40,400 nucleotides of DNA, from assembly GCA_018062385.1 (NCBI GenBank), contig JAGOSI010000002.1, positions 1 to 40,400 of the forward strand, written 5' to 3'. Under the pieces are notes generated by a model. That model made no database searches and was not told the origin of the DNA. It saw only the letters and a list, made by a program, of their open reading frames with translations. Positions 24,100-40,257 of the stretch are shown one piece after another (within the stretch, counting starts at the first letter, position 1; each line of letters begins with the position of its first letter). This stretch comes from Minisyncoccota bacterium (GTDB taxonomy: Bacteria > Patescibacteriota > Minisyncoccia > Phycocordibacterales > UBA918). The position numbers and the translations under genes are program-made.

Positions 24100-26922
24100 A
24101 TGGCAACAACGGTTGCTTTCGGTAGTAATCTAGTGGTTGATGAAGGAGGTGGAAACGTCTATCTTGTCGTTAATCGTACAGGAGATTTGACTGGTACTAC
24201 TTTAGTGGTGGTCGATGAAGATTGGTCAAGAAGTTCAGCAGAGACTGACGATGTTATCTTTAACCCGTATGTAGCTGGGGCGAGTATAGTTTACCTACCT
24301 GACACACGTCAAGTATTGTTGAAGTTTAATCCAGGAGTAAAAACTCTAAAGATTCCATACAGTATCAGTAATGATATTGTGAGTGAATTGTCGGAGAGAT
24401 TGTATTTCTCGTTGTCTTATATTACTCCAGTTATAATCGGAGATGATGATGCGAATATCAAAATCAACGCGAGTGATCCAGTCTTAAGTATTCATGGATT
24501 GTGGGTAGATGAAGGCCAGACTACAAATTCATATATTGAACTTAGTCATGCGGTTAATTTTGCAGTGACGGTGAAAGTCTCAACCTACTTCGGTACCTAC
24601 AAACAAGCAAATTACTTAGGTGAGGGTAAAGACTATAAAGGTTTGGTAGATCAATTGGTAACCATACCAGCTGGTCAAACCAAGGCTTATGTACCATTTC
24701 TCACTTATCAAAATGATGATCCAAATGACTGGAAGTATGAGTCAACGGAAATCAGGATTGAAGCAACTTCTATTCCAAACGGAGTATTGGCTGGACAAAT
24801 AAGTGATGTGGTGACTATCATAGATGTGGCAACACCGCCTCCACCACCCACTCTACCAATTCTCACCCTCTACGATGGTGGTTTAGCATTTGAAAATGAG
24901 TCTACTCACTCTTATGCCGAGCTTAGTGATCCAGTAGACCATGATGTTACCTTTAAGGTTAGTACGTATTTCGGTACGTATCAACAAGCTAATTATCTTG
25001 GTGAAGCTGGTGACTATGATGGTTTGATAGATAAATTATTTACCATTCAAGCAGGTCAGACAAGGGTGGATATTCCTGTACAAATAAATCAAAACCCTGA
25101 TCCAGAGGATTGGGAATATGAAGCGTTTGAACTGCGTATCGAAGCCCCAACTGTATTTGGTGCAACACTAGGTGTGGGCAGTGTCATCATTAATATCAAA
25201 GATGTATCAACTTGGGTAGAGCCGCCACCACCAACTGTGACACCACTAACAGCAACAATGTTGGAAAGTCACAAACAAGCTTTTCTCAATCTCGAATCTG
25301 AGGTGGGGACGAGTTCGGCAGTAGCAATTATTGCTGGCAATAAGGAATTATCTAATGTTGGTAAAACTTTAGATGTTTTCGGTCTATTATCAAGTGGTGT
25401 CAAAAACGCCATCACTTGGTTTGCTGGTAGTTCAGCTTATGCAAATCAGGAAGAATTACCGCTATTTACTCTAACTCAAAAGCAAATCAATATTGGTTTG
25501 CGTTTGCAGTCTAGGGTAGATTCTGATCAAGTGGCTACCGATCCAATTGACTGGACTACAGAGGAAGTAAATGACACTGATGGTTTAGGGTTGAGAGTTG
25601 GTGATTATGTTGATGGTAGGGTAGTTATTGCTCAGCCTTTGATTTCACTTTCTTATGCTGATCATGATTGGTATGTATCACAAGGTATGAGTGATGGAAC
25701 TGGAGATATGATTAGTCATTTTACTAAGAATATTATTAATCATCTTGGGGAAAAATCTGTTGGTATTGCTGAGGTGGCTATCGATTATTCTTTGAGAGAT
25801 AAATGGTTAGCAGAATCAGGGACAGAGACATATTTCTATGCTCAAGCTCCAGGAAAAATTATTTCAATTGCAGATAATACGACCGGAGAGGGCCCAGGAA
25901 GTTTTGGTAACTCTATTACTATCCTGTTGGATAAACCAGCTAAGATAAATGGTGGGGATTATCAAGTGTATGTTACTTACGCTCATGCTAAAGCTGGATC
26001 CATTATTTCTACAACGGGTCCAGATTCAGTAGGTGATCATGTTGATGTTGGTACACCACTTGGTATTGTGGGAAATAGTGGTTTTGCTATTGGGAAGCAT
26101 ATACATGCGACCTATGCAACTGGCTACTATGAACCAGATGGATATAAAATTGCTAGTAATGTTGGTAATATATCAAAATCTGATCCTCTTGATTCACCTC
26201 GAGAAGGTGGTGTTTCCATATCACCTGTATACATCATCGGCTTCAATCCAAGCCAAAATGGTTTTCCATCTGGTCCAAATCCAAATGTAGAACCATCGCA
26301 ACTTGGATATAAACCTTTCGGTGCCAGTGGTAATTTTATAGTTCCAGATAATGTAATTATGGGAACTGATGGTAAAGATTACTTTTCTGGTACTGATAGT
26401 GATACTGTCTATTACGGTGGTGACCATTATGATGATCAGATTGATTATGTCGGTATTGGGTCATGGCGAAGCAATTTTGCTGTTACTCAAAACCCCGATA
26501 GCTCAATCAATCTCGACAGTGCCAAATTCGGTTTTGACATCCTAAAAGACGTCGAAGGGGTTTGGTTTGAAGGAGAATGGAAATGGTACACCAAAGCTGA
26601 TCTCCTAAAACCTTTAAATACCAATGTTGTCTTAGGGAAAGAAACCGGTGATGTTCTCTATGGTTCTTCAGACATAGATATGTTTGCTGGTGGAGCTGGT
26701 AATGATCATTTTGTCGGCAGTATTGGCAATGATGTATACAACGGTGGTGATGGTGATGACACGGTAGAATATTATGGCGCCTATGCTTCTCGTGATAATT
26801 TTGTCTTCACACAAAATCCCAATGGCACCATTACAGCCAAGAGTGATTATTTTGGCACTGAAACCTATGTCAGTATTCAAGGTGTATGGTTTGATGGTAG
26901 TCAAGAGTGGCTTTCTTTGTAG
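24100..26922 (+). CDS. Large multidomain protein: three Calx-beta-like domains, M23/LytM-like peptidase domain, two RTX-like Ca-binding modules
   Basis: Strong RBS aaggagg at 24088-24094. Calx-beta-like repeats at about aa 1-123, 126-243 and 252-369, separated by PPPPPT/PPPPT linkers. M23-like block YAHAKAG..VGDHVDVGTPLGIVGNSGFAIGKHIHATY. RTX-like repeats GTDGKDYFSGTDSDTVYYGGD and FAGGAGNDHFVGSIGNDVYNGGDGDD. No N-terminal signal peptide. Confidence 0.8.
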   Translation: MATTVAFGSNLVVDEGGGNVYLVVNRTGDLTGTTLVVVDEDWSRSSAETDDVIFNPYVAGASIVYLPDTRQVLLKFNPGVKTLKIPYSISNDIVSELSERLYFSLSYITPVIIGDDDANIKINASDPVLSIHGLWVDEGQTTNSYIELSHAVNFAVTVKVSTYFGTYKQANYLGEGKDYKGLVDQLVTIPAGQTKAYVPFLTYQNDDPNDWKYESTEIRIEATSIPNGVLAGQISDVVTIIDVATPPPPPTLPILTLYDGGLAFENESTHSYAELSDPVDHDVTFKVSTYFGTYQQANYLGEAGDYDGLIDKLFTIQAGQTRVDIPVQINQNPDPEDWEYEAFELRIEAPTVFGATLGVGSVIINIKDVSTWVEPPPPTVTPLTATMLESHKQAFLNLESEVGTSSAVAIIAGNKELSNVGKTLDVFGLLSSGVKNAITWFAGSSAYANQEELPLFTLTQKQINIGLRLQSRVDSDQVATDPIDWTTEEVNDTDGLGLRVGDYVDGRVVIAQPLISLSYADHDWYVSQGMSDGTGDMISHFTKNIINHLGEKSVGIAEVAIDYSLRDKWLAESGTETYFYAQAPGKIISIADNTTGEGPGSFGNSITILLDKPAKINGGDYQVYVTYAHAKAGSIISTTGPDSVGDHVDVGTPLGIVGNSGFAIGKHIHATYATGYYEPDGYKIASNVGNISKSDPLDSPREGGVSISPVYIIGFNPSQNGFPSGPNPNVEPSQLGYKPFGASGNFIVPDNVIMGTDGKDYFSGTDSDTVYYGGDHYDDQIDYVGIGSWRSNFAVTQNPDSSINLDSAKFGFDILKDVEGVWFEGEWKWYTKADLLKPLNTNVVLGKETGDVLYGSSDIDMFAGGAGNDHFVGSIGNDVYNGGDGDDTVEYYGAYASRDNFVFTQNPNGTITAKSDYFGTETYVSIQGVWFDGSQEWLSL

Positions 26923-27140
26923 TTTAATTTAGTAGTCCTTTTTTGGTTCTTTAAAACCCTAAATCACAATGTGATTTAGGGTTTTCTTTTTACTTATTCT
27001 GTGGTACGGTACGTTTTATGAAAAAGACATTATTTATAACTATATTATTACTACTAACTGCCATAGTGGTCGGACTAGTGATTTTAAATGATAAAAAAGT
27101 ATCGGTTGAGCCAATAGTTAATAATGTTGCGACCACTACT
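26613..27140 (+). repeat. Copy A of ~530-bp mosaic direct repeat (resident cassette)
   Basis: Colinear with 28073-28603 at a constant offset of 1460 bp. 26613-26690 is 78/78 identical. The middle ~200 bp is diverged. 26895-27050 has about 7 mismatches in 156 bp. Confidence 0.9.
26953..26985 (+). terminator. Rho-independent terminator after the large gene
   Basis: aaaaccctaaatcac-aat-gtgatttagggtttt followed by ctttttt. Confidence 0.8.
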
Positions 27141-28055
27141 GAAGGTCTGTCTTTTAAAACTGGTCAAAAAATGATTTTTGTAGAGAATGTTGCGACCACT
27201 ACTGAAGGTCTGTCTTTTAAAACTGGTCAAAAAATGATTTTTGTAGATGATGAAAATGACTCAAGATGTCATGATAAAGATGGTTTTCCGGCTCTAGCTT
27301 TTTTACCAAAAACGGATAGTGTTTTTATTTTTTCTAATTTTGAGACCAGACTTAAAGAATATCCAATATTGAATATTGATGACACTACATTTTTGGTTTG
27401 TTCAAACAGTGAAACAAATAATTATAAAGTAGGGATACTTTACTCCAATAATTATTCAATAGTAGTTGTAAACAACGGTCATCTTACCGTGTTAGTAGAA
27501 GATATTATAGTTGAGTTAAATAAGCAGGGTTTTAATATTACAGAAAATCCAGATGATATTATTTTTAATCCAATGTATTTTTCTAGTAAAAATAATTCAA
27601 TAATTATTGGTAAAAATAGGTATGGAGTTGGTGGGTCATCTTCTAATCCGTTGTATTCTTATTCTTTGGAGACAGGCTCTTTCACGGAGCTTGCGATTTC
27701 AAAATATCATCATGATATGAATGGAATACTAACAAACCCGAACTCACCTTATTCGGTTGAGAGTGGAAAAATTTTAGTTTTACTTAACTTCGAAACTGAT
27801 ACATATAGAGTTATTTATGAGGCACTACCGAACGAAACTTTGACCTCAGAATGTGATATTGGTTGCAAGGTGGAAAATAAATGGTTGAGCGATGACGTTT
27901 TACTTTTCTATGTTTATTATTTTGATAAAAAAGAATATCAAAAAACGGGATATCGAGTAGAGCAATATAGTCTAAAACAGAAAAGAATATTAGATAAAAG
28001 TGAATGGATTGGTAGTGACGAAGACTATGTTAGTAAAGTCACTTTTTTTGATTAG
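27018..28055 (+). CDS. Signal-anchored extracytoplasmic protein, unknown function (cassette partner A)
   Basis: MKKTLFITILLLLTAIVVGLVIL signal anchor. By eye the body is more AT-rich than its neighbours. Contains a 21-aa perfect tandem duplication. No family recognised. Confidence 0.7.
   Translation: MKKTLFITILLLLTAIVVGLVILNDKKVSVEPIVNNVATTTEGLSFKTGQKMIFVENVATTTEGLSFKTGQKMIFVDDENDSRCHDKDGFPALAFLPKTDSVFIFSNFETRLKEYPILNIDDTTFLVCSNSETNNYKVGILYSNNYSIVVVNNGHLTVLVEDIIVELNKQGFNITENPDDIIFNPMYFSSKNNSIIIGKNRYGVGGSSSNPLYSYSLETGSFTELAISKYHHDMNGILTNPNSPYSVESGKILVLLNFETDTYRVIYEALPNETLTSECDIGCKVENKWLSDDVLLFYVYYFDKKEYQKTGYRVEQYSLKQKRILDKSEWIGSDEDYVSKVTFFD
27123..27248 (+). repeat. 63-bp tandem duplication (2 units, 62/63 identical), in frame
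   Basis: aatgttgcgaccactactgaaggtctgtcttttaaaactggtcaaaaaatgatttttgtaga[g/t] occurs twice (27123-27185 and 27186-27248). It encodes NVATTTEGLSFKTGQKMIFV(E/D) twice. Confidence 0.95.
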
Positions 28056-28058
28056 TAG

Positions 28059-28382
28059 TTTGTATGTAGAGATTTAAATACCAATGTTGTCTTAGGGAAA
28101 GAAACCGGTGATGTTCTCTATGGTTCTTCAGACATAGATATGTTTGCTGGCGGTGCTGGTAATGATCATTTTGTCGGTAGTATTGGCAATGACACCTATA
28201 ACGGTGGTGGTGACTATGATACGGTAGAATATTACGGTACTGAAGCCTCGCGTAATAATTTTACTTTTACCTATAATGCAAACGGTTCTATTATTGCAGA
28301 AAGTGATCAGTTCGGAACTGAAATATATGTTGGTATCGAAGGAGTTTGGTTTGGTGGTAGTCAAGAATGGCTTTCTTTGTAG
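28059..28382 (+). pseudogene. Promoterless, 5'-truncated orphan copy of the C-terminal RTX module of the 24100-26922 gene
   Basis: The frame opens directly after TAG 28056-28058. Homology starts at 28073, equivalent to L839 of the large protein. It encodes LNTNVVLGKETGDVLYGSSDIDMFAGGAGNDHFVGSIGNDTYNGGGDYDTVEYYG..GVWFGGSQEWLSL. There is no RBS or start other than the internal Met codon at 28140. Confidence 0.75.
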
Positions 28383-28603
28383 TTTAATTTAGTAGTTCTT
28401 TTTTGGTTCTTTAAAACCCTAAATCACAATGTGATTTAGGGTTTTCTTTTTGTTTGTTGTGTGGTACGGTACGTTTTATGAAAAAGACATTATTTATAAC
28501 TATATTACTATTACTTGCCATTATTGTGGTCGGTTTAGTAATTTGGAGTGACAAACAGTCAGTCATTGAACCTGTGGTTGATACTAATGTGGCTACTACA
28601 AGT
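28073..28603 (+). repeat. Copy B of ~530-bp mosaic direct repeat (orphan cassette)
   Basis: See copy A. Covers the orphan RTX module, the duplicated terminator and the first ~40 codons of the next gene. Confidence 0.9.
28413..28445 (+). terminator. Duplicate of the 26953-26985 terminator
   Basis: Identical hairpin sequence, 1460 bp downstream of copy A. Confidence 0.8.
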
Positions 28604-29164
28604 GCTATTTCTTCTGTTCCTTCACCCCTAACCCTCGCTTCACTCCAAGCTCTACCGGACTGGAACCCCACCATGGAAGTGGAAGGTATGAAAAGAGTGG
28701 AAGATGGTAATCCAGAGTTGGAGGTGAAGAATCTTCCAATTCATACGGAAGAAATAAGATCTAACAATTCTAGTTCTACTTTTGTGATTAAATATCTAGA
28801 ACCAGAGGTTAGTAATGAGGCGTGTGAGAAGTACGGTTTAACTGGAGAACCCTCAGGATATTTACTTAGATATAATTGTTTAATCGCTACACCCGATCTG
28901 TTCAATGAATTGATTGTTCTTTCGGGAAATACTGGTGAAGTGTTGCATAAGTATAGGTTGAAGGAGGGATATTCTTTGGCTGGTGATGTGTATCGAAGAG
29001 AAGGAGGGATTGTAACTATCAATAATTCCGTTGATAAGAAAATTATAGGTATATACATATATAAATGGGATTTTTCAAGTGATGTTCTTGAAAGAACTCC
29101 AGTTCTTCGTGACTATAGAATTAATTTAATTACCGGTGAAATAACCGAAATCAAACCACGTTAA
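28478..29164 (+). CDS. Signal-anchored extracytoplasmic protein, unknown function (cassette partner B)
   Basis: ATG 28478 equals 27018 + 1460. MKKTLFITILLLLAIIVVGLVIW is near-identical to partner A, and the two are unrelated after ..NVATT. The track start 28454 is a non-ATG extension. Confidence 0.7.
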   Translation: MKKTLFITILLLLAIIVVGLVIWSDKQSVIEPVVDTNVATTSAISSVPSPLTLASLQALPDWNPTMEVEGMKRVEDGNPELEVKNLPIHTEEIRSNNSSSTFVIKYLEPEVSNEACEKYGLTGEPSGYLLRYNCLIATPDLFNELIVLSGNTGEVLHKYRLKEGYSLAGDVYRREGGIVTINNSVDKKIIGIYIYKWDFSSDVLERTPVLRDYRINLITGEITEIKPR

Positions 29165-29298
29165 CTCTGTATGACAGGGGGCTAGCTTTTGAAAATGAGC
29201 TATTCATTCTTATGCCGATTTTAGTCAGTCGGTAGACCATGACGTTAATTTCAAGGTGAGTACGTATTTCGGTGCGTACTAGCAAGTCAATTACCTTT
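29165..29298 (+). pseudogene. Decayed fragment homologous to the start of the third Calx-beta repeat of the large gene (24868-24999)
   Basis: Alignable by eye: ..gaaaatgag..cttatgccga..ggtagaccatgacgtt..aaggtgagtacgtatttcggtgcgtac.. It carries +1/-1 indels and an in-frame TAG where the parent has CAA. Confidence 0.7.
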
Positions 29299-30097: not shown

Positions 30098-30137
30098 AAA
30101 AACCCCAACTTATTATTCAATAGTAAGTTGGGGTTTT
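30098..30137. terminator. Bidirectional terminator between convergent 29791-30090 and the sipW-like gene
   Basis: aaaaaccccaactta-loop-taagttggggtttt with T-runs on both strands. Confidence 0.75.
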
Positions 30138-30154: not shown

Positions 30155-31696
30155 CTATACTTCAGGCTCTGTCTCTGGCTGATTTTCATTATCACTTTCT
30201 TCTTCCGTAGTTGTCTCCAACTGATTTTCTGCCTCTTCAACCCCATCAGATTCTACCGATTCATTCTCCGTATCATCAACTTCATTACCAACTGGTTCGT
30301 CTATAGTTTCTGGTGCTGGTGCTGAATTATCTTCAATAACTGTTTCTACTTGCTCTACTGACTTACCAGAGTCTTCTAGCGGTTCTGATTTGGTCACAAG
30401 ATTAGTGAAGTCAGCCTGTGGAGCTGGGATTAAGGTCTTGTTGGCTACAAAGGTTAGCACTATAGTTTCTGCATCAACATAACCCTGATCTTCACTATTA
30501 CCAGCATAACCCTCCATGATTAGATTTATAGTACAAGTATCACCAGAATTATACTCACTCGCTTCAGCCAATGAAAAATTTAAAGACCAAGGATTCAAGA
30601 AAGCAACATTGTTCCCAGTCAAACTAGATAAAGACCCAGAAAATGATAATGGTGAATCCGCACTCACTAAAATATCATCACAAAGTGCAACAGTACCACT
30701 AGCAAAGTTCATTGACACAGCATAATTAAAATTATTTTCGCCATCATTGATATTTACTTCAACTCCATCTTCTCCACTAAATTCACCGTCAAGGATAGAA
30801 AAACTGGCTAGTTCTGGACTAATAGTAAAATCCAAAGCTTGGGCTTTTAGATGATTATCAACACTAGCTTCAACATCGGCTGGATAAGCTAAAGAATATC
30901 CGACTCCGGTCTGCCCCAATAAAGTAATTATCATCACAAAACCAGCTGTAGCCACCACAAATCTTGATTTAATATCATGATTAGCAGCAAACATTGGTGA
31001 TTTATTTTTTAGTTGCAAAGCCGGATTTTCCACTTTCTGCACCTTTGGCTTAATATCCATCATTCTCACTTGAGCAGTAACTAATGGCTTTTTCACCGCC
31101 ACGGTTGGCATATTTAAAGTAGCTAAATTTAATGGATTTGGTTGATACGGCGCAATTACCAAAGGCATAATCATTTCCTTAGTAATTTTCATTTTACGCA
31201 CTCGTCTCACCTCCCGCCCAATATTATCTAATTCATCAATAATAATTAGGAGTGCAGGCAAACCAATCAACAAAGCAAAACCAGCTGGTTGTCGAGCAAA
31301 ATCCAACACAAAACCAAGGTAAGGAACATCTACCATTACCTTACCCAAAATATCACGGACAGAAACCAAATTGGCATCACGCTCTTCGTTGGCGTCACCT
31401 TTGGTGACAAAATATTCTTTCCCCTCAGACATTTCGGTACCTATAATGCGATGAGTAGTTGGAACATCACTATCGCGACTAGAGAATGTAATCACGTCTC
31501 CAACTCCGTAAACAGGCGCCGCTTGCACTACCACCACCGCACCAGTCATAATGGCTGGTTCCATCGATCCAGACTTAACAATCTTCACTTCAAATTCACC
31601 AAGTCCCGGAACTGGTGGGGCAAAGAAAAGTACCACCAGTGCCGCCAGGATTAGAGCATAGAAACTATAGAGAATGAAATTGAATATTTTTTTCAT
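30155..31696 (-). CDS. sipW: SipW-type (archaeal/ER-type S26) signal peptidase I fused to a TasA-like module and an acidic tail
   Basis: Core peptidase motifs: KSGSMEPAIMTGAVVVV, GDVITF, TTHRIIG, VTKGDANEERD, then a second TM. From aa ~244 there is a second signal-peptide-like segment, KSRFVVATAGFVMIITLLGQTGVGYSLAYPADVEASVDNHLKAQALDF. A beta domain ends QGYVDAETIVLTFVA, followed by a Glu/Asp-rich tail. The start is 1 nt after the upstream stop. Confidence 0.75.
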   Translation of the reverse strand: MKKIFNFILYSFYALILAALVVLFFAPPVPGLGEFEVKIVKSGSMEPAIMTGAVVVVQAAPVYGVGDVITFSSRDSDVPTTHRIIGTEMSEGKEYFVTKGDANEERDANLVSVRDILGKVMVDVPYLGFVLDFARQPAGFALLIGLPALLIIIDELDNIGREVRRVRKMKITKEMIMPLVIAPYQPNPLNLATLNMPTVAVKKPLVTAQVRMMDIKPKVQKVENPALQLKNKSPMFAANHDIKSRFVVATAGFVMIITLLGQTGVGYSLAYPADVEASVDNHLKAQALDFTISPELASFSILDGEFSGEDGVEVNINDGENNFNYAVSMNFASGTVALCDDILVSADSPLSFSGSLSSLTGNNVAFLNPWSLNFSLAEASEYNSGDTCTINLIMEGYAGNSEDQGYVDAETIVLTFVANKTLIPAPQADFTNLVTKSEPLEDSGKSVEQVETVIEDNSAPAPETIDEPVGNEVDDTENESVESDGVEEAENQLETTTEEESDNENQPETEPEV

Positions 31697-31697
31697 A

Positions 31698-32735
31698 CTA
31701 GCTATTTCTACCAGTTACTCTACTAATAGTATTACGAACATTATCTCTCAGCCTTTCAGACAAAGTTCTGGTTTCAGACACTCGATAAAAACGATCACTT
31801 TCGATTTGACCTGAAGGCAAACCATCATCATCGGTATAGTCATCTTCATTATTTGAGTGTCCAGGATTGGAGTTATCGTTATGGTCATTATCATTACCGT
31901 GTCCATTATTCCCTTTTGGCTCACAGTTCTTTCCTTTTTTATCTTTACACTCTGGTTTTGGCTTTGGCGGTTTTACTTCCTTTTTACACTTAAATCCTTG
32001 ATTTGAATTGGCTTGTACTGCTCGTAGCACCACATCTACAGTCATTGAGTCTGTTTGCATCACATTTCCCAAACCAGACCCATCACAACTCACATTAGCG
32101 TTACTCAAATTAACCTGCAAATCTCCTGCACACCAAATAATTCCAACATAATTAGTAGAATTAACAGCACAGGAATTACCAGTGTTAGCATCGGCCACAG
32201 CATATGTGGTACTGCTTAAAAGGGTACTGGCTGTTTCGGTGGCACTGCCACCGAAGATCACTTTTTCATTTTTCTCAAACACATTATCGCCGTCATCACG
32301 CCAAGCGAAAAACTCAAGATTTTGTGATAATTCACCACTCGGTAAATTATCAACAATTGATTCTGGTTCGTTCATTCCGTTTTCAAAGTCCTGTAGATTG
32401 TTGAAATCAAGACAAATATAAGCTGGATTTTTCTTCACATGAAGACTTATATTATGTCGTCCCATATCTCCTGGTTTGATGTCGTCAAAATTAAAGAAAT
32501 GATCGACACCTGGCACTAAGTCTTTCAATTTCCAACTTAAAGCCGGTTGTGAAACTCCGTTGTAAACGGCTTTGCTATCAACTTTTAATTCCAAGCCACT
32601 TTGTCCTTGGCCATTTTTTGTAGCAAAGGTATAACCAGTTCCAGCTCCATTCGCCACCAAAACTACCAGCAGGAATCCTAGCACTGCTAAGACTAGCGTG
32701 ATCTTGATTCCTCTGTGGTAGAAAGTTTTTGGCAT
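31698..32735 (-). CDS. TasA/camelysin-like paralog 3 (divergent signal region, His/Asn/Asp-rich tail)
   Basis: Shares FFNFDDIKPGDMGRHNISLHV, NEPES, GELSQNLEFFAWRDDGDNVFE, YVGIIWCAGDL and QTDSMTVDVVL..FKC with the two upstream paralogs. The tail contains HGNDNDHNDNSNPGHSNNEDDY. Confidence 0.65.
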   Translation of the reverse strand: MPKTFYHRGIKITLVLAVLGFLLVVLVANGAGTGYTFATKNGQGQSGLELKVDSKAVYNGVSQPALSWKLKDLVPGVDHFFNFDDIKPGDMGRHNISLHVKKNPAYICLDFNNLQDFENGMNEPESIVDNLPSGELSQNLEFFAWRDDGDNVFEKNEKVIFGGSATETASTLLSSTTYAVADANTGNSCAVNSTNYVGIIWCAGDLQVNLSNANVSCDGSGLGNVMQTDSMTVDVVLRAVQANSNQGFKCKKEVKPPKPKPECKDKKGKNCEPKGNNGHGNDNDHNDNSNPGHSNNEDDYTDDDGLPSGQIESDRFYRVSETRTLSERLRDNVRNTISRVTGRNS

Positions 32736-32771: not shown

Positions 32772-34160
32772 TTAATCCTGCAATACTCCACAATTTAGGG
32801 CGCTCACGGCATCAAGATCATAACCATCGGCTGTTGCCTCAAACGGTGCTCGAGGAGACACATCGGTAATTCGCACATACTTTGCCCAAGCTAGACCTGA
32901 AGAAGCTAAATCTGCCTCAGTATCCCTGTCGGCACTTGCGGTTACCAAGAACCAATTAGTTCCATTCTGACTAACTTCAATTTTTATCTTTTCAGTTGGA
33001 TAACTAGTTCCTCCTGTCACCTCCCAAGCTCGCAAATCGTTTCCTGGACCATCTACGATATAACCACTTCCAAATTCTAGGACAATAGAGCCACCTTCAA
33101 CAATCGTGGTACTAGAATTGAAACCTAAACTAAAGAAACTGTTGGCTACCACCGGACTATCAAATGGTGTTCCCATACTCTGTGGTGCACCAAGAACAAA
33201 ACTAGGATTTGTTCGGTCAGCTGTTACTGGAGTACCATTCTTTCGCACTCCCTGACTAGAAGTCACAACACTGCTAGCGTAGGTTTGAACTGGCAAAGTA
33301 CAAGCGGTGAAAACTGGCTCAGAATTACACTTAAAGTCAGCATTATGACGAGCTTGAGTTGCAATAAATTGTACATCTGCGGTCAGTGAGTCGGTTTGGC
33401 TTTCATTTCCAAGCAGTGAACCGTTACAAGTCACACCACCGTCTTCTGGAGTACCGATTTCCTGATCATTGTTGTTATCTAAGTTGGGAGCGCGGTTCAC
33501 ACTAGAATTATCTTGAGTTAATGGATCTGTACCCATTTCGCCAAAACACCAAGCCTTACCAATATACATAGTTTCACTACCTGCGAGTGGTCCACCCTCA
33601 TTATTTTCGTTCCAAATATTAGTTTCGGAATCAGCGAGCGTGATTGTATGAGCTTCATTCAAAGTCAGAGCCCCGATGGCTCCAGGACCAGAGATAACCG
33701 TCTCATCATCCTCTAGCACATTATCGCCATCATCTGCCCACCAAATGAAGTTTACTAATGAAGCTAATTCACCCTCATTTTCTCCAGCGGTGTTATCTAC
33801 TTCTGCTTCCGGCTCAGTTTGGCCGTTTTCATTATTGGAGGTTAAGGTTACATCAGCACAGACAAAGGAATCATTGTTGTCGACATGAATCGAAATAGTA
33901 TCTTCACCATAATCACTTGGCTTCAAATCACCAAAATCAAAAAACTTTTCAATAGTCAGATCTTTTTGCTCCCAGGTCGTAGAAGCATTTAAAACACCAT
34001 TATAATAACTCTCATTATCAATCTTTAGATCAATCGCTCCCGCAGTAAAGACGTTGGCGACTGAAGTCTCACTATCGGAGAAAAAGGCTTTGGTTACTCC
34101 AAAAGCGACCGACCCACCAGCCACTACAATCAAAGCTACGCTTAGGAAAATTCGTTGCAT
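32772..34160 (-). CDS. TasA/camelysin-like paralog 2 with extra C-terminal beta-sandwich domain
   Basis: SipW-type signal peptide plus mature N-terminus: ..GSVAFGVTKAFFSDSETSVANVFTAGAIDLKIDN. Also FFDFGDLKPSDYGEDTISIHV and QTDSLTADVQFIATQA. ATG 34160 is preferred over TTG 34205. Confidence 0.75.
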   Translation of the reverse strand: MQRIFLSVALIVVAGGSVAFGVTKAFFSDSETSVANVFTAGAIDLKIDNESYYNGVLNASTTWEQKDLTIEKFFDFGDLKPSDYGEDTISIHVDNNDSFVCADVTLTSNNENGQTEPEAEVDNTAGENEGELASLVNFIWWADDGDNVLEDDETVISGPGAIGALTLNEAHTITLADSETNIWNENNEGGPLAGSETMYIGKAWCFGEMGTDPLTQDNSSVNRAPNLDNNNDQEIGTPEDGGVTCNGSLLGNESQTDSLTADVQFIATQARHNADFKCNSEPVFTACTLPVQTYASSVVTSSQGVRKNGTPVTADRTNPSFVLGAPQSMGTPFDSPVVANSFFSLGFNSSTTIVEGGSIVLEFGSGYIVDGPGNDLRAWEVTGGTSYPTEKIKIEVSQNGTNWFLVTASADRDTEADLASSGLAWAKYVRITDVSPRAPFEATADGYDLDAVSALNCGVLQD

Positions 34161-34286
34161 ATAATATTTATTAAAATCAGAACTTGATAAACTTTTTAAT
34201 AACAATCACGCTGATCCCCTTCAGCCCGCTAAATCCCAGAAACTGAGATTTAGAACGGCTAAATAAGATTATCTTATACGGATTTA

Positions 34287-35480
34287 TTAAGTAGTGTAGG
34301 TATTGGTTGCTTCACAAGTCACAGCTTCGCCAAGAGCGATGGTAACTTGACTACCAACTTCAGGTGTAGCATTTCCAGTACATGACCAAGTCAACACTTC
34401 CCCACCAGGTCCAGCTGGTAATTCACCTAGAGTGTAGACTCCTGGCAACACTACAGCATTGGTAACAGAAAGAGCACCTTCAATTCCAGAAATGGTTGAT
34501 GAACCTGTTGCTGTTAGTGTAAACGCTGAATCTGCAATAACTTCTGCAGGTGTAACTGTCTTAGCTAGTGTAAGAGTAGTAGTTGCTACTGGTTCTGGTT
34601 CTTCAACCACGCCAGGACAACGGAAGTTTTCGTTGTTTCGAGCTTGTTCGATGTAGAAGCTGATATCAGCTTTAAGTGAGTCAGTTTGACTTAGGTTTGT
34701 AACTGATTCTCCACTACATGAAAGAGTTGTACCAGTAACAGTTAGATCACCGTAGCACCAGTAAACTCCTACATATGTCGTTTCAAGAGCTTGAATAGCA
34801 CCAGTTTGTGGTGTGAAAAGTGGATAGGTTCCAGCAATTCCTACACCATCTTCATCATTGGCCAAAACTTGCTCTCCAGTTTCAAAGATATTATCGCCAT
34901 CATCTTCCCAAATAAAGAAGCTTAGTTCTTGGTCTAGTTCACCGGTAGTTGTACCGTTTACATCAACCACAGATTCTGGTTCGGTTTGAGTATTGTCAGC
35001 TGACTCTACATTACTGATAGTAGCGCACATGTAAGCGTCATTATTGACTACATGTAGAGATAGTGTGTTTTCACCATTATCTCCCGGCTTTAGGTCACCA
35101 TAATCGAAGAAAGTATGAGTTGGGCCAAGATCGGTCAGAGCCCAAGTACCTTCACAAGCAGTACCAGCTTGTGGCACATTGGCTGGGTTGGCGGTGTTGT
35201 AAACAATAATTGCAGCTGCGGCATCGCCCGTTAGTTCATTAACTGAACTAGAAGCGTTCCAAGTTACTACTGTTTCTGGTAGCCATTGACTAACTTGTCC
35301 ATCGTCAAAACAAACTAATCCATTAATATGGGCCACGCTATCAACCTTCAGATCAATCGCTCCTGCCGTAAACACGTTAGCTGTTGAAGTCTCCGTGTCA
35401 CTGAAGAAAGCGCCAGTTCCGCCGGCCACCACAGCCCCAGCAAAAACTATCATCCCTACCCCTTTAATAATTCCTTTCAT
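34287..35480 (-). CDS. TasA/camelysin-like paralog 1 (first gene of operon) with C-terminal prealbumin/Cna-B-like domain
   Basis: MKGIIKGVGMIVFAGAVVAGGTGAFFSDTETSTANVFTAGAIDLKVDS parallels B. subtilis TasA (..GGGTWAAFNDIKSKDATFASGTLDL). Also DLKPGD and QTDSLKADISFYIEQA (compare TasA QGNSIKLQFSFEATQ). Confidence 0.8.
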   Translation of the reverse strand: MKGIIKGVGMIVFAGAVVAGGTGAFFSDTETSTANVFTAGAIDLKVDSVAHINGLVCFDDGQVSQWLPETVVTWNASSSVNELTGDAAAAIIVYNTANPANVPQAGTACEGTWALTDLGPTHTFFDYGDLKPGDNGENTLSLHVVNNDAYMCATISNVESADNTQTEPESVVDVNGTTTGELDQELSFFIWEDDGDNIFETGEQVLANDEDGVGIAGTYPLFTPQTGAIQALETTYVGVYWCYGDLTVTGTTLSCSGESVTNLSQTDSLKADISFYIEQARNNENFRCPGVVEEPEPVATTTLTLAKTVTPAEVIADSAFTLTATGSSTISGIEGALSVTNAVVLPGVYTLGELPAGPGGEVLTWSCTGNATPEVGSQVTIALGEAVTCEATNTYTT

Positions 35481-35854: not shown

Positions 35855-36934
35855 CTAAGTGATCTCATTACCATAATGCAAACCTCGAAACCACTTGGCA
35901 AATTGCTGGAGCTCTAAATAACCATATTGATCAACTTTCATCACCCAATGGTATAACTCAAAAGCAGTGGCTTCAGTCGGAAATTCCAACCAATATTGAA
36001 ACTGCTCAATCAAAGATCCAATTCCTCCATCATCAGCAAATGATTGATTCGATACCAAACAATTATTAAACTTCATTCCAATGTAATAAGAATGCTGTTG
36101 AAACAATCTCAACCAGTCATCTTTACTCAAATGTTCTTTATCAGAAGAGAATTTTGGTAAGTAGGCCACTTTTTTAGGATCAAATTTAGCCAGACCCAAG
36201 GATTGTAAAATTTTGATATCTAACCAACCAATATCAAATTCCCACCATTTTAGAGCAAGCCTGGGTGAAGTTTGATAGGCGTGATGATTATTATGCAACT
36301 CTTCTCCACCAATCAAAATCCCAAAAGGTAACAGATTTTGCGAAGCGTCTGGTGTTTCGGCATTACGATAACTTAGAAATTTGTAATGCCCCAAACCATT
36401 AATGACTCCAGCCGCCATGATTGGTATCCAAAACGCTTGAATACCAAAAATAATTAAGCCGGGCCAACCAAAAATAATTGTTTGCACCAAACCCAATAGA
36501 GTCAAACCTAGCCACGGATGTTTTGAATAAAGATTGTGTTCAATCCAATCATCAGGCAAACCTTTGGCCAAATTACCTTGGACATATACTAATATCTCTT
36601 TATCCTTCAAAGCCTGCTTATACAATCTAGCACCATGAGTTAACAGTTTTATAATACCAAGCTGTTGAGGGCTATGCGGATCATCTACCGTCTCACATTT
36701 ATCGTGATGCTTGCGATGAACAGCTACCCATTCGTGAGTTTTCATACCGGTAGTTAGCCAGAGCCAAAACCGGAAGAAATGCTGTACTGAAGGATGAAAT
36801 TCCACAGAACCATGAGTTTTACTGCGATGAAGATATAGAGTTACTGAAACAATAGTGATATGAGTTAGAAATAATGTAATTAAGACATACATCCACCAAG
36901 GTAATTGCCCCAAGAGACCATATAATAAATCCAT
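35855..36934 (-). CDS. Membrane fatty-acid (acyl-CoA/acyl-lipid delta-9-type) desaturase with ~100-aa C-terminal extension
   Basis: Three His boxes: HRSKTH, HRKHHDKCETVDDPHSP and HNNHHAYQ. TM segments. The second ATG (36934) has GGAGG upstream and is preferred over 36946. Confidence 0.85.
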   Translation of the reverse strand: MDLLYGLLGQLPWWMYVLITLFLTHITIVSVTLYLHRSKTHGSVEFHPSVQHFFRFWLWLTTGMKTHEWVAVHRKHHDKCETVDDPHSPQQLGIIKLLTHGARLYKQALKDKEILVYVQGNLAKGLPDDWIEHNLYSKHPWLGLTLLGLVQTIIFGWPGLIIFGIQAFWIPIMAAGVINGLGHYKFLSYRNAETPDASQNLLPFGILIGGEELHNNHHAYQTSPRLALKWWEFDIGWLDIKILQSLGLAKFDPKKVAYLPKFSSDKEHLSKDDWLRLFQQHSYYIGMKFNNCLVSNQSFADDGGIGSLIEQFQYWLEFPTEATAFELYHWVMKVDQYGYLELQQFAKWFRGLHYGNEIT

Positions 36935-37024
36935 TTTAACCTCCATTTTAAATTATGAACGAACAAAAAATAATGAACAATCATTACTGTCTGCATGGTA
37001 CCACATTTTTAGGATGTAGATAGA

Positions 37025-37668: not shown

Positions 37669-37762
37669 CTTACCAAAATTCAAAGACCCTAGACATATCT
37701 AAATAATTAGGTACTATCGAACAGGAAATTTGTAAACTTTGACAATTAAATAGGAGGACGTG

Positions 37763-39067
37763 ATGGAAATTAAAGTTGCAAAATTTGGTGGCACTTCATT
37801 ATCTGATCAAGAACAAATCAAGAAGGTTCTCAAGATTGTTCAATCAGATTCCGCACGTAAATACATCGTTGTTTCGGCGCCAGGGAAAAGACATGGCACC
37901 GACCAGAAAATCACCGATCTTCTTTTGGAGTGGCATAAACTTAATGAACTTAACATCCCAGCTTCGGGAATTAAAAAAATTATTTACGATCGCTTTTCAG
38001 AAATAATCCATGGATTAGAAGTGAAATTTGATCTTAAACATGAAATGCGAGAAATTGCGAAAAGTATAAAGTTAGGAGCTTCAGCTGATTACGCAGCTAG
38101 CCGTGGCGAATATCTTAACGGTAAAATTATTGCTCTTGCTCTTAACTTTGAATTTATTGATCCAACTACTTGTATTTCCTTTGATGAAAATGGTAAGTAT
38201 CAAAAAAATGAAGATTTAATTCAAAAGATACTTTCGGGGAAAGTAGCGGTTATTCCCGGATTCTATGGTTCCTTACCTAACGGCTCAGTAAAAACTTTTT
38301 CACGAGGTGGCTCTGATGTTACTGGTGCCATTATAGCTAGCGCAGTTAGGGCCAGTGTTTATGAAAATTGGACTGATGTATCTGGACTACGCATGACTGA
38401 CCCAAGAGTAGTAAGTGTAGCTAAAAAAATAATGACAGTGACTTACCGTGAGTTACGTGAACTTAGCTACATGGGAGCCAATGTTTTTCACGAAGAAGCG
38501 ATGTTTCCAATCCAAGAAACTGGAATCACCACTAATATTCGTAACACAAATGAACCAGAGGATCCCGGTACTTACATAGTTGCTGATATGTCTTCAAAAA
38601 GTAGAGGTATAGTTACCGGTATTGCCGGACGAAAAAACTTTACCGTCATTACTATTGAAAAGAGAATGATGAATCAACAAATTGGTTTTGTTCGCAAAAT
38701 CTTAAGCGTTCTTGAGGCAAACGACATAAGCTTTGAGCATATGCCGAGCGGGATTGATGGTCTAAGTATTATTATTGATGATACAGAGCTTAAGGGAAAG
38801 CACGAAAAAATCTTAGGTGACATCAATGAGACCTGTCGACCTGATAGCATGAAAATGGAGAAGTCAGAAATAGCCATGATTGCCATTGTTGGACAAGCAA
38901 TGAATCACACTCCAGGGGTAGCGGCCATGGTATTTTCAGCTTTAGCAGCTAATGACATCAACATTCGAATGATTAATCAAGGGGCTAGTGAATTAAGTAT
39001 CATAGTTGGTGTTAATAATAATGATTACGATACGGCTATCCGTGTTTTGTATAAATCATTTGCCTAA
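37763..39067 (+). CDS. lysC: Aspartate kinase (monofunctional, with C-terminal ACT domains)
   Basis: KVAKFGGTSL, VVSAPGK..TD.LL, GFYG...G...TFSRGGSD, TDVSG..TDPR. C-terminal ACT-like repeats. RBS aggagg at 37752-37757. Confidence 0.9.
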   Translation: MEIKVAKFGGTSLSDQEQIKKVLKIVQSDSARKYIVVSAPGKRHGTDQKITDLLLEWHKLNELNIPASGIKKIIYDRFSEIIHGLEVKFDLKHEMREIAKSIKLGASADYAASRGEYLNGKIIALALNFEFIDPTTCISFDENGKYQKNEDLIQKILSGKVAVIPGFYGSLPNGSVKTFSRGGSDVTGAIIASAVRASVYENWTDVSGLRMTDPRVVSVAKKIMTVTYRELRELSYMGANVFHEEAMFPIQETGITTNIRNTNEPEDPGTYIVADMSSKSRGIVTGIAGRKNFTVITIEKRMMNQQIGFVRKILSVLEANDISFEHMPSGIDGLSIIIDDTELKGKHEKILGDINETCRPDSMKMEKSEIAMIAIVGQAMNHTPGVAAMVFSALAANDINIRMINQGASELSIIVGVNNNDYDTAIRVLYKSFA

Positions 39068-39151: not shown

Positions 39152-39238
39152 CGGAGAGGGAGGGATTCGAACCCTCGATACGCTTTCGCGTATACTACCT
39201 TTCCAAGGTAGCGCGTTCAACCGCTCTGCCACCTCTCC
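39152..39238 (-). tRNA. tRNA-Ser (anticodon GGA), type II with long variable arm; CCA not encoded
   Basis: Reverse complement folds by hand as GGAGAGG-TG-GCA-GAGCGGTTGAA-CGC-G-CTACC-TTGGAAA-GGTAG-TATACGCGAAAGCGTATC-GAGGG-TTCGAAT-CCCTC-CCTCTCC-G. Colinear with E. coli tRNA-Ser. One A:C mismatch in the D-stem. Confidence 0.9.
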
Positions 39239-39360: not shown

Positions 39361-40257
39361 CTACTTCCCCATCTCCCGTAAAATCCGGATACGGTCAGTG
39401 GCTGGTGGATGCGTAGAAAACAAGCTACTGAGTCTTTGACCAATAGTTTGTTTCTCCTCTGGACCAAAAGGATTAGAGATAAACAAATGAGCAGTAGCAT
39501 GAGAGGCTGAGCGCATTGGTTGCTTATAACCAGAAATTTTTTCTAGCGCTGAAGCCAAACCTTCAGGGTAACGAGTCAAAAGCGCAGCTGAAGCATCCGC
39601 CAAATACTCACGCTTGCGTGATACTGCCATTTGAATCAAATTAGCTGCAATTGGCGCTAAAATAATGCCGATAATGCCGATGATAAGTAAAGCCGGATGA
39701 CGATCTCTGTCTCCCCCACCCATAAATAACATACGAGTGAAAAAATCTGCCAAAATTGCCACAAAACCGGCCAAAACCACCGCCACAGTCATAACCAACA
39801 TATCACGATTTCCAACATGTGAAAGTTCATGTGCCATTACACCTTCAAGCTCATTACGATCTAAAATATTTAACAAACCTGTTGTAGCCGCTACCACAGA
39901 ATGTTCTGGGTTGCGACCAGTCGCAAAGGCGTTTGGCATAGGATCATCCACAATGTAGATCTTTGGCATTGGTAATCCGGCAGTAATCGATAGATTTTCA
40001 ACAATATTGTAAAGCTCTGGTGCATCAGCCTTACTGGCCGGTTTGGCATTGGTCATACTTAAGACTAATTTGTCTGAAAACCAATAACTACCGACATTCA
40101 TCAACAAAGCAAAAATAATGGCACCGTACAAAATTGCCGGACTTTCCATATACCAGCTCACAGCGTAACCAATCGCAATAACAATCGCAAAAAACATCGC
40201 CATCAAAAACCATGTTTTTCGCACATTGCTATCTTGTTGTGTATATAACGTTGCCAT
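39361..40257 (-). CDS. htpX: Membrane zinc metalloprotease HtpX (M48)
   Basis: HELSHVGNRD (HExxH), downstream EYLAD, four TM segments. 298 aa. Confidence 0.9.
   Translation of the reverse strand: MATLYTQQDSNVRKTWFLMAMFFAIVIAIGYAVSWYMESPAILYGAIIFALLMNVGSYWFSDKLVLSMTNAKPASKADAPELYNIVENLSITAGLPMPKIYIVDDPMPNAFATGRNPEHSVVAATTGLLNILDRNELEGVMAHELSHVGNRDMLVMTVAVVLAGFVAILADFFTRMLFMGGGDRDRHPALLIIGIIGIILAPIAANLIQMAVSRKREYLADASAALLTRYPEGLASALEKISGYKQPMRSASHATAHLFISNPFGPEEKQTIGQRLSSLFSTHPPATDRIRILREMGK

What the first reader, a model, noticed from the sequence alone, without database searches (positions are those of the whole stretch)
30155..30967. Signal peptidase fused to a substrate-like module carrying its own SipW-type signal peptide
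After the ~165-aa SipW core and its second TM, the same polypeptide continues with a basic n-region, a hydrophobic h-region and a TasA-like mature N-terminus: KSRFVVATAGFVMIITLLGQTGVGYSLAYPADVEASVDNHLKAQALDF. Compare AFFSDxExSxxNxFxAGxxDL in the upstream paralogs. Next comes a compact beta domain ending QGYVDAETIVLTFVA (compare QTDSLKADISFYIEQA), then a ~70-aa Glu/Asp-rich tail. An enzyme fused to a copy of its own substrate class suggests one of two things. It may self-process. Or, because AYPAD differs from AFFSD, it may be an uncleaved, membrane-tethered TapA-like anchor or nucleator for the fibre.
Basis: partly seen in the sequence, partly recalled or inferred. Interest (0 to 1): 0.72.

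Follow-up and report, generated by a model that had tools for sequence, protein, structure and literature searches.

The report
Signal peptidase fused to its substrate
A real, conserved gene in tiny Patescibacteria joins a fibre-specific signal peptidase (SipW) to a protein carrying that peptidase's own type of cleavage signal, probably so that each enzyme releases one starter or anchor piece for the TasA-like surface fibres encoded just upstream.

Summary
The 513-aa ORF (30155-31696, minus strand) is real. At least 142 cluster representatives from independent assemblies share the fused architecture. The N-terminal 165 aa are a catalytically intact ER/archaeal-type SipW peptidase. A basic cytoplasmic linker follows. 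Then come a third hydrophobic helix and the 23-residue pattern SLA|YPADVEASVDNHLKAQALDF, which matches the cleavage-site and N-terminal motif of two upstream TasA/CalY-family genes. Across the family this site reads GST(V/I)S|YFxDxExSxxNxLxAxxLDF. Position -3 is T/S in 99% and -1 is S/A in 98% of fused members.

Only 31 columns (site plus motif) are homologous. The domain itself is an Ig-like sandwich with two invariant Cys, and its nearest solved folds are PapD-like chaperones. A 93-aa acidic disordered tail follows.

In most Patescibacteria the same module is a separate gene directly downstream of a short sipW, often with an ATGA stop/start overlap and an ordinary N-terminal signal peptide. 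The window therefore holds a Rosetta-stone fusion of enzyme and substrate. Other lineages fuse SipW to the same signal and motif with a different passenger domain.

Best reading: a self- or trans-processed TapA/CapP-like fibre initiator or anchor. Cleavage is inferred, not shown. I rate it a new variant of a known system.

The parts
34287..35480 (-). First operon gene, par397: a TasA/CalY-family (PF12389) subunit with a canonical SipW-type signal peptide (GGTGA|FFSDTETSTANVFTAGAIDL) and a C-terminal SpaA_2 prealbumin-like domain.
   Evidence: Pfam PF12389 26.7 bits and PF19403 46.4 bits. TIGR04088 25 bits, above the 19-bit cut-off. Homologs are named CalY/TasA family.
32772..34205 (-). Second gene, par477: a TasA-like subunit with the canonical motif (VTKA|FFSDSETSVANVFTAGAIDL) and a C-terminal discoidin-like region.
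   Evidence: Weak PF12389 and TIGR04088 hits. Pattern hit at 34026-34094. 30 bits against the module-family profile.
31698..32735 (-). Third gene, par345: a divergent TasA-like paralog lacking the canonical D-x-E-x-S-x-x-N motif. Its stop codon lies 1 nt before the start codon of the fusion gene.
   Evidence: The gene at the equivalent position in other loci hits the TasA-like HMM, but in most loci not the module-family profile that carries the motif.
30155..31696 (-). The 513-aa SipW-module fusion ORF, last gene of the operon.
31616..31687 (-). TM1 (aa 4-27), the N-terminal membrane anchor of the peptidase.
   Evidence: Hydropathy. AF2 helix 2-25.
31289..31615 (-). Extracytoplasmic SPase catalytic domain (aa 28-136), with S44 (SGSMEP), H82 (TTHRI) and D101/D107 (GDANEERD).
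   Evidence: TIGR02228 1e-29. H82, D101 and D107 are invariant and S44 is conserved in at least 90% of 55 homologs. Foldseek hit to human SEC11C 7p2q_A, E 3.5e-6, TMt 0.60.
31232..31288 (-). TM2 (aa 137-155), which returns the chain to the cytoplasm.
   Evidence: AF2 helix 137-175.
30962..31231 (-). Basic, disordered cytoplasmic linker (aa 156-245; 17 K+R vs 6 D+E).
31052..31066 (-). Conserved linker motif R-M-M-D-I (aa 211-215). It equals the MDD(I/V) / FDG(I/V)(R/K) motif near the N-terminus of many split module proteins. Function unknown.
   Evidence: Column frequencies R68 M67 M55 D86 I84 % in 114 fused proteins. Sequences of the split forms.
30902..30961 (-). TM3, the h-region of the internal SipW-type signal peptide (aa 246-265).
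   Evidence: AF2 helix 242-264. The uncharged stretch before the site has median length 25 aa in fused forms, 23 in split modules and 21 in TasA-like substrates.
30827..30895 (-). Predicted cleavage site plus donor-strand-like motif SLA|YPADVEASVDNHLKAQALDF (aa 268-290). The predicted scissile bond is A270|Y271.
   Evidence: Pattern scan. Position statistics. hhalign 96.9% over these columns. Low pLDDT, meaning the segment is unstructured in the monomer.
30437..30826 (-). Ig-like beta-sandwich (aa 291-420) with invariant C339 and C388.
   Evidence: pLDDT above 90. The two Cys are invariant in 55, 116 and 47 sequences. Foldseek finds PapD-like chaperones at E 3e-4.
30158..30436 (-). Disordered acidic tail (aa 421-513; 30 D+E, 2 K+R).
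30099..30137 (.). A perfect 18-bp hairpin 18 nt beyond the stop codon; a likely operon terminator that could act in both directions.

Best explanation
**What it is.** The gene is a fusion of two neighbouring, normally translationally coupled genes of a patescibacterial TasA-like fibre operon. The first encodes the dedicated ER-type signal peptidase SipW. The second, the gene that normally follows it, encodes a secreted accessory protein. That accessory protein consists of a SipW-type signal peptide, a TasA-like N-terminal strand motif, an Ig-like domain and a disordered tail.

**How it probably works.** The protein inserts with three membrane-spanning helices. The catalytic domain and the module both lie outside the cell, with the linker inside. 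The SipW domain, in cis or from a neighbouring molecule, cuts after A270. This leaves a 29.5-kDa basic three-helix peptidase and releases a 26-kDa very acidic protein whose new N-terminus is YPADVEASVDNHLKAQALDF.

**What the released part probably does.** By analogy with TapA (B. subtilis), CapP (B. cereus) and the role proposed for AbpB (archaea), the free N-terminal strand is inserted into the first TasA-like subunit (par397 or par477). This would start the fibre next to the peptidase, and possibly hold it at the cell surface. The Ig domain and acidic tail would serve as cap, spacer or wall attachment. Fusion guarantees one initiator per peptidase at the same place.

**Shown:** the fusion, the topology signals, the shared motif, the separate-gene forms and the synteny.

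**Inferred:** the cleavage, the strand donation and the initiator/anchor role.
For: 1. **The fusion is real and conserved.** 142 fused representatives were found. The same four-gene operon occurs in a complete 1.09-Mb genome (L001).
2. **The peptidase looks active.** It scores above the TIGR02228 cut-off. S44, H82, D101 and D107 are conserved. It has a SEC11-like fold.
3. **The internal site matches real substrates position by position.** This holds from -5 to +20 against 118 PF12389 proteins. In fused modules -3 is T/S in 99% and -1 is S/A in 98%; +4 D, +6 E, +11 N and +19 D are also conserved. hhalign gives E 1.5e-10. Five of 55 fused homologs hit TIGR04088.
4. **Charge distribution places the site outside the cell**, beside the catalytic domain.
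5. **The module is usually a separate gene.** In 55 of 80 species-representative loci it sits right after a roughly 180-aa sipW. Thirteen of these have a 4-nt stop/start overlap, and many have ordinary short N-terminal signal peptides. The module therefore functions as a separate, secreted polypeptide.
6. **The anatomy parallels TapA.** TapA has a signal peptide, a flexible N-terminal donor strand, an Ig domain with a Cys pair and a disordered C-terminus. It is low in abundance like SipW, and tapA overlaps sipW (PMC10151520).
7. **Only the first 57 residues of TapA are needed** (10.1101/794164). Here, other SipW fusions keep only the TM and motif, followed by a tail or an LTD domain. The motif is therefore the constant functional part.
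8. **The motif segment is unstructured** in the monomer model, while the Ig domain folds confidently without it.
Against: - No experiment or proteomic evidence for cleavage was available.
- The -3/-1 residues sit inside a generally conserved motif, so their conservation does not prove cleavage.
- There is no sequence or fold match to TapA or CapP themselves. The TapA analogy is architectural only.
- The motif could be conserved mainly as a SipW recognition element rather than as a donor strand.
- After cis-cleavage the signal peptide would stay tethered to the enzyme and might block it. How that would be avoided is unknown.
- The window's own segment does not reach TIGR04088.
Confidence: 0.5

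Rival explanations
1. **Uncleaved membrane-tethered anchor.** TM3 is a permanent signal-anchor. The motif next to the membrane inserts into the proximal TasA-like subunit, so that the peptidase itself is the base of the fibre.
For: - The hydrophobic stretch is long, with a median uncharged run of 25 aa.
- The fusion keeps everything in one membrane protein.
- TapA is reported to co-localise with the membrane (PMC10151520).
- The window has the YP variant at +1/+2.
Against: - Undisputed substrates in the same genomes have h-regions of almost the same length (21 aa).
- The -3/-1 rule is kept in 98-99% of fused members, including here.
- Split modules often have ordinary short secretory signal peptides.
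- From general knowledge of SPase I: Pro is tolerated at +2 and blocks cleavage only at +1.
Confidence: 0.2
2. **Just another SipW-dependent surface protein.** The passenger would be an adhesin or coat protein with no role in fibre initiation. The shared N-terminal motif would then be only a recognition tag for SipW, and the fusion a by-product of tight gene coupling.
For: - The beta domain is unrelated to TasA.
- Passengers vary: Ig-like module, LTD, or tail only, with lengths up to 1440 aa.
- TIGR04088 is defined as a signal-peptide class, not as a fibre family.
Against: - In 55 of 80 species-representative loci a module gene directly follows sipW, downstream of 1-4 TasA-like genes.
- There is translational coupling.
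- The motif is retained even when the passenger is reduced to a disordered tail (L013, L026). This is hard to explain for a mere cargo protein.
Confidence: 0.2
3. **Pseudo-substrate regulator.** The tethered signal-like segment occupies the SipW groove and gates its activity, or an internal start at M212/M213 produces a separate module protein from the same ORF.
For: - The R-M-M-D-I motif lies where many split module proteins begin (MDD...).
Against: - The Met residues are only 55-67% conserved.
- The motif is often internal in split proteins.
- No Shine-Dalgarno-like sequence lies upstream of the ATG ATG in the window.
Confidence: 0.06
4. **Assembly or frameshift artefact** joining two genes.
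For: - Many relatives are split, with overlapping reading frames.
Against: - Over 100 independent fused homologs, at 31-73% identity and from four data sources, align in frame through the linker.
- A complete genome carries the fusion.
Confidence: 0.02

Closest known systems
B. subtilis tapA-sipW-tasA system: TapA, the accessory/initiator
   Same: - A SipW-processed accessory protein encoded next to, and overlapping, sipW.
- A flexible N-terminal strand resembling that of the major subunit.
- An Ig-type domain with a conserved Cys pair.
- A disordered C-terminus.
- Only the N-terminal part is essential in TapA; here only the TM and motif are constant across the fusions.
   Different: - No detectable sequence similarity, and no TapA hit among the top 50 Foldseek matches.
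- Gene order is sipW then module, not tapA then sipW.
- Here the two proteins are covalently fused in one clade, so the signal peptide is internal.
SipW / Sec11 (ER- and archaeal-type signal peptidase I, MEROPS S26B)
   Same: - Scores above the TIGR02228 cut-off.
- Ser/His/Asp catalytic residues.
- TM helices at the N- and C-terminal ends of the core.
- SEC11C-like fold.
- Operon with TasA/CalY substrates.
   Different: - Carries a 340-aa C-terminal extension containing a substrate-type signal peptide.
- Scores below the Bacillus SipW equivalog cut-off (99 vs 190 bits).
B. cereus CapP (BC1280)
   Same: - A SipW-processed protein with a structured N-domain and a disordered C-domain.
- It nucleates and controls TasA/CalY filament assembly, and its tail mediates wall retention (PMC13082335).
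   Different: - No homology was tested or seen.
- CapP is transcribed separately and is not fused to the peptidase.
Archaeal AbpB of the bundling-pili operon
   Same: - Proposed initiator that gives a complementing strand to the first TasA-like AbpA subunit, with extra domains acting as a possible adhesin (PMC9245690).
   Different: - No dedicated peptidase in that operon.
- Not fused.
- Relationship untested.
[quoted passage not shown]
   Same: - Nearest solved folds to the beta domain (E 3e-4 to 2e-3).
- They also act by donor-strand complementation.
   Different: - TM-scores are only 0.33-0.41, with 9-14% identity.
- One domain here instead of two.
- The strand presumed to be donated is an N-terminal extension, not the G1 strand.
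- This is a generic Ig-like resemblance, not family membership.

Membership tests
ER/archaeal-type signal peptidase I (TIGR02228; SipW-like) | Profile score above the curated cut-off | tested here: met
   103.5 bits against a cut-off of 51.85, over aa 3-157. All 55 homologs match.
ER/archaeal-type signal peptidase I (TIGR02228; SipW-like) | Catalytic Ser, His and Asp residues (Sec11/SipW type; residue roles taken from the literature, from memory) | tested here: met
   H82, D101 and D107 are invariant. S44 is conserved in at least 90% of 55 sequences.
ER/archaeal-type signal peptidase I (TIGR02228; SipW-like) | SEC11-like fold | tested here: met
   7p2q_A, E 3.5e-6, TMt 0.60.
Bacillus SipW equivalog (NF046067) | Score above the equivalog cut-off (190 bits) | tested here: not met
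   99.2 bits. It is a SipW-like protein, not an equivalog.
SipW-dependent-type signal peptide (TIGR04088) | Profile match to h-region, cleavage site and conserved N-terminal motif | tested here: inconclusive
   - The window segment itself gives no hit at E up to 10.
- 5 of 55 fused homologs hit, best 2.6e-5.
- The family profile against the N-termini of PF12389 proteins gives hhalign 96.9%, E 1.5e-10.
- All 23 pattern positions are present in the window.
SipW-dependent-type signal peptide (TIGR04088) | Actual cleavage by SipW | not testable with these tools
   Needs expression, N-terminal sequencing or proteomics.
TasA/CalY/camelysin (PF12389) mature domain | Homology of the folded core (jelly-roll) | tested here: not met
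   - Beta domain against TasA-like core: hhalign probability 0.2%.
- Only 2 of 55 give weak PF12389 hits.
- No TasA structure in the top 50 Foldseek hits, and no PDB sequence hit.
TapA (YqxM) | Sequence or fold homology to TapA | tested here: not met
   No TIGR04087/TapA hit in NCBIfam scans. No TapA chain in the PDB profile search. Neither 6HQC nor 8AIF appears in the top 50 Foldseek hits.
TapA (YqxM) | Function: donates its N-terminal strand to start TasA filaments | not testable with these tools
   Only architectural parallels are available.
PapD-like chaperone | Two-domain PapD fold with a G1 donor strand | tested here: not met
   A single domain. TM 0.33-0.41 and rmsd 6-7 A.

The most novel reading that the evidence does not exclude
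Patescibacteria have repeatedly built self-processing peptidase-substrate fusions. SipW cuts its own C-terminal passenger at an internal signal peptide. It keeps that signal peptide as its third membrane helix and releases exactly one fibre-initiating (or fibre-anchoring) strand per enzyme. This would make the signal peptidase itself the assembly platform of TasA-like fibres, a minimal counterpart of chaperone-usher logic in a cell with a single membrane.
Probability: 0.35. Interest if true: 0.75.

Novelty: new variant of a known kind. Interest (0 to 1): 0.6.

Why it matters
- **Open question in TasA fibre biology.** How TasA-type matrix fibres are started and held at the cell surface is still debated. 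A physical association between the initiator TapA and SipW has only been hinted at, from their overlapping genes. A natural fusion and fission series of SipW with a substrate-type accessory protein is independent genomic evidence that the two act together. It is also a compact construct for testing cleavage, cis versus trans action and nucleation.
- **Patescibacteria.** The survey shows that a conserved TasA-like fibre operon (2-4 subunit genes, sipW, accessory gene) is widespread in these bacteria. Their surface structures and host attachment are poorly understood.
- **Annotation.** The accessory-module family has no Pfam or NCBIfam model and is currently hidden under the name 'signal peptidase I'.

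Tried and rejected
- **Word-indexed search with the C-terminal 254 aa found nothing, not even the query itself.** This was a false negative. The full-length search and the exhaustive search found hundreds of relatives.
- **Pairwise BLASTP of the C-terminal part against the three paralogs was not significant** (E 0.18-0.74). Profiles were needed.
- **TasA-like fold for the beta domain: rejected**.
- **Sequence search of the module profile against PDB** gave only low-complexity tail matches.
- **The search for related loci with the module alignment failed** because no stretch was conserved enough. The full-length alignment was used instead.
- **Internal translation start at M212/M213: considered and judged unlikely**.
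- **Frameshift artefact: rejected**.
- **Literature searches** linking SipW/TasA/camelysin with Patescibacteria or CPR found only a remark that PF12389 occurs in Patescibacteria (PMC9245690). No description of the fusion was found. The library does not hold all journals.
- **The neighbour-joining tree of SipW domains is rough and has no support values.** It suggests, but does not prove, more than one fusion or fission event.
- **Model coordinates were not accessible.** The C339-C388 distance and any docking of TM3 on the active site could not be checked.
Full report
**1.

The minus-strand ORF 30155..31696 encodes 513 aa. Residues 3-157 match the ER/archaeal-type signal peptidase I model TIGR02228 (103.5 bits, cut-off 51.85). 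They also match the Bacillus SipW model, but below its equivalog cut-off (99 vs 190 bits).

Hydropathy and AlphaFold2 give three helices, at about aa 4-27, 137-155(-175) and 242-265. A disordered linker spans 176-241. A confident beta-sandwich covers 291-419 (pLDDT above 90), and a disordered tail runs from 432 to 513.

The quoted peptide is aa 243-290.

Net charges are +2 for the N-terminus, -6 for the catalytic domain, +11 for the linker and -49 for everything after TM3. By the positive-inside rule (general knowledge), this places the catalytic domain and the module on the same, outer side of the membrane.

**2. It is not a frameshift**

A full-length search found 281 clusters. The best 120 are 410-643 aa long and cover 74-100% of the query. 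They come from NCBI, JGI, ENA and Logan assemblies and, where named, are called only 'signal peptidase I' of Nomura-, Kaiser- or Paceibacteria.

Together with the exhaustive search, 142 representatives are fused and 76 carry the module alone. A complete 1.09-Mb genome (CP060227.1, L001) has the same four-gene operon.

H82, D101 and D107 are invariant and S44 is conserved in at least 90% of sequences. These correspond to the Ser/His/Asp residues of Sec11/SipW (residue roles from memory of the literature). Foldseek's best hit is human SEC11C (7p2q_A, E 3.5e-6). The peptidase therefore looks active.

**3. The internal signal peptide and motif are real and specific**

The window sequence alone is only suggestive against the paralogs (BLASTP E 0.18) and does not reach TIGR04088. 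At family level the signal is clear:
- The aligned fusions read basic residues, a hydrophobic stretch, then G(S/G)T(V/I)S-YFxDxExSxxNxLxAxxLDF.
- A profile of this region scores 30-32 bits on par397 and par477.
- hhalign against 120 PF12389 proteins gives probability 96.9%, E 1.5e-10.
- Five of 55 fused homologs hit TIGR04088 directly.

Position by position, fused modules (n=128), stand-alone modules (n=61) and TasA-like proteins (n=118) share the following:

| Position | Residue | Frequency |
|---|---|---|
| -3 | T/S or T/G | 96-99% (T alone 85-93%) |
| -1 | S/A or A/G | 92-98% |
| +1 | aromatic | conserved |
| +4 | D | 86-97% |
| +6 | E | 85-98% |
| +8 | S | conserved |
| +11 | N | 86-98% |
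| +19/+20 | D-(F/L) | conserved |

In the window the site is S-L-A|Y-P-A-D-V-E. Pro at +2 occurs in 12% of fused members.

A 23-residue pattern built from this motif occurs three times in the six-frame translation of the window: in par397, in par477 and at 30827-30895. It occurs 0 times in 100 shuffles.

In B. subtilis TasA the equivalent stretch begins at the mature N-terminus (residue 28) and forms the strand inserted into the next subunit (PMC10151520).

**4. The folded part is not TasA-like**

The hhalign match covers only 31 columns. With the motif removed, the beta domain against the TasA-like core gives probability 0.2%. Only 2 of 55 members give weak PF12389 hits. A PDB sequence search with the module profile finds only low-complexity matches.

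A module-only model (pLDDT 88) has PapD-like chaperones as its best structural neighbours: FimC, FaeE, SfaE, SafB and Caf1M (E 3e-4 to 2e-3, TM 0.33-0.41). A Bacteroides lipoprotein also matches (4lba, TMt 0.54-0.57). Neither TasA nor TapA appears in the top 50.

I read this as an Ig-like sandwich of uncertain ancestry. C339 and C388 are invariant in all three alignments, so a disulfide is likely.

**5. The module is normally a separate gene right after sipW**

The exhaustive search returned many proteins of 240-350 aa with the module near the N-terminus. It also returned longer ones in which a lamin-tail domain (LTD) and a low-complexity tail follow the module.

I then examined 80 loci from GTDB species representatives, all named or evidently Patescibacteria. 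The usual layout is 2-4 TasA-like genes, then a roughly 180-aa sipW, then a module gene:
- 55 loci are split. Their intergenic distances cluster at -4 nt (13 cases, the ATGA stop/start overlap) and mostly fall within about 20 nt.
- 10-12 loci are fused.

Many split module proteins have ordinary short N-terminal signal peptides. One example is MIRKILTITLLFSFTMFFIISNNIGSTISYFSDTETS (L049).

The window gene is therefore a Rosetta-stone fusion of an enzyme with a member of its own substrate class. A rough neighbour-joining tree places the fused forms in one main clade plus scattered cases among split forms.

**6. Other fusions keep only the signal and the motif**

Several SipW genes in other lineages continue into a TM helix, the motif and a different passenger:
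- An LTD domain (PF00932, 51-58 bits) in L020, L063, L071 and L081; L068 shows the same LTD-like sequence but was not scanned against Pfam.
- Only a low-complexity tail in L013 and L026.

The constant partner of SipW is thus the signal peptide plus the N-terminal strand motif. This mirrors TapA, where the first 57 residues (the signal peptide plus about 14 mature residues) suffice for function (10.1101/794164).

**7. Mechanism I favour (confidence about 0.5)**

The protein inserts as N-in, with TM1, catalytic domain out, TM2, linker in, TM3 and module out. SipW cuts after A270, in cis or in trans. This gives a 29.5-kDa basic peptidase that retains TM3 and a 26-kDa acidic protein (pI 4.05).

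The new N-terminal strand then complements the first TasA-like subunit, and so starts or anchors the fibre beside the peptidase.

The parallels with TapA are:
- a long signal peptide;
- a flexible donor N-terminus;
- an Ig domain with a Cys pair;
- a disordered C-terminus;
- low abundance, similar to SipW;

CapP of B. cereus is likewise SipW-processed. It has a structured N-domain and a disordered wall-anchoring C-domain (PMC13082335). AbpB has been proposed as an archaeal initiator (PMC9245690).

Steps shown: the architecture, the motif identity, the topology signals, the split forms and the synteny. Steps inferred: cleavage, strand donation and the initiator/anchor role.

**8. Rivals**

- **Uncleaved anchor (0.2).** This is possible, but the site keeps the -3/-1 rule, the h-region is no longer than in true substrates of the same genomes, and split forms look secreted.
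- **Unrelated SipW cargo (0.2).** The variable passengers favour this. The strict position after sipW in fibre operons, and the fusions reduced to the motif alone, argue against it.
- **Pseudo-substrate regulation or an internal start at M212/M213 (0.06).** The Met residues are only 55-67% conserved and no Shine-Dalgarno sequence is evident.
- **Artefact (0.02).**

**9. Operon context**

A terminator-like hairpin at 35838-35814 follows the upstream desaturase gene. The four genes are closely spaced (gaps of 81, 36 and 1 nt). A perfect 18-bp hairpin at 30099-30137 follows the fusion gene.

**10. Novelty**

All the components are known kinds: SipW, TasA/CalY subunits and SipW-processed accessory proteins. 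What I could not find described is:
- the covalent peptidase-substrate fusion with an internal SipW-type signal peptide;
- its recurrence with different passengers;
- the conserved sipW-module gene pair across Patescibacteria.

The literature searches found no description, and the module has no Pfam or NCBIfam model. I rate it a new variant of a known kind, with interest 0.6.

Noticed in passing
window 31052-31066 (-), aa 211-215; also the N-termini of split module proteins such as P0152, P0161, P0204 and L010: A conserved cytoplasmic motif R-M-M-D-I (R68 M67 M55 D86 I84 % in 114 fused proteins) sits in an otherwise variable linker. The same motif, as MDD(I/V)xVP or FDG(I/V)(R/K), lies near the N-terminus of many stand-alone module proteins but is absent from those with short signal peptides. 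Its function is unknown.
   Followed up: partly
L013, L020, L026, L063, L068, L071, L081 (GTDB Patescibacteria loci): These are SipW fusions with a different passenger after the TM and SipW-type motif. The passenger is a lamin-tail domain (PF00932, 51-58 bits; L068 by sequence resemblance only, not scanned) or only a low-complexity tail. L063, L068, L071 and L081 form a separate basal clade in the rough tree.
   Followed up: partly
window 31698-32735 (-), par345; equivalent third genes in L001, L004, L006, L009: The TasA-like gene immediately upstream of sipW consistently lacks the canonical D-x-E-x-S-x-x-N N-terminal motif (here GYTFATKNGQGQSGLELKVD). In the window it ends in a basic, then His/Asn/Asp-rich tail. 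It may be a specialised subunit such as a cap or terminator.
   Followed up: no
window 26613-26912 vs 28073-28372; 24902-24999 vs 29200-29297: The 3' end and an internal segment of the 940-aa RTX-repeat gene (24100-26922) recur downstream as 80-82% identical fragments. One fragment carries an in-frame stop. These look like decayed partial duplicates.
   Followed up: partly
window 27123-27248 (+): A near-perfect 63-nt tandem duplication lies inside ORF 27018-28055 and repeats a 21-aa peptide (NVATTTEGLSFKTGQKMIFVE/D). This ORF and ORF 28454-29164 share the same signal-peptide-like start, MKKTLFITILLLL.
   Followed up: no
L010, L022, L028, L033, L042, L046, L049, L050, L059, L066, L075, L083, L032: Thirteen split sipW/module gene pairs share a 4-nt ATGA-type stop/start overlap. 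Two contigs from one ENA sample show an identical 41-nt overlap. This suggests conserved translational coupling.
   Followed up: partly
window 35855-36946 (-), 37760-39067 (+), 39152-39238 (-), 39361-40257 (-): The neighbouring genes are ordinary: a fatty-acid desaturase (PF00487), an aspartokinase-type amino-acid kinase with ACT domains, one tRNA and an M48 (HtpX-like) peptidase.
   Followed up: yes
The word-indexed protein search with the C-terminal 254 aa returned no hit at all, not even the query's own protein. Homologs clearly exist, so negatives from that tool on divergent, low-complexity-flanked queries are unreliable.
   Followed up: yes
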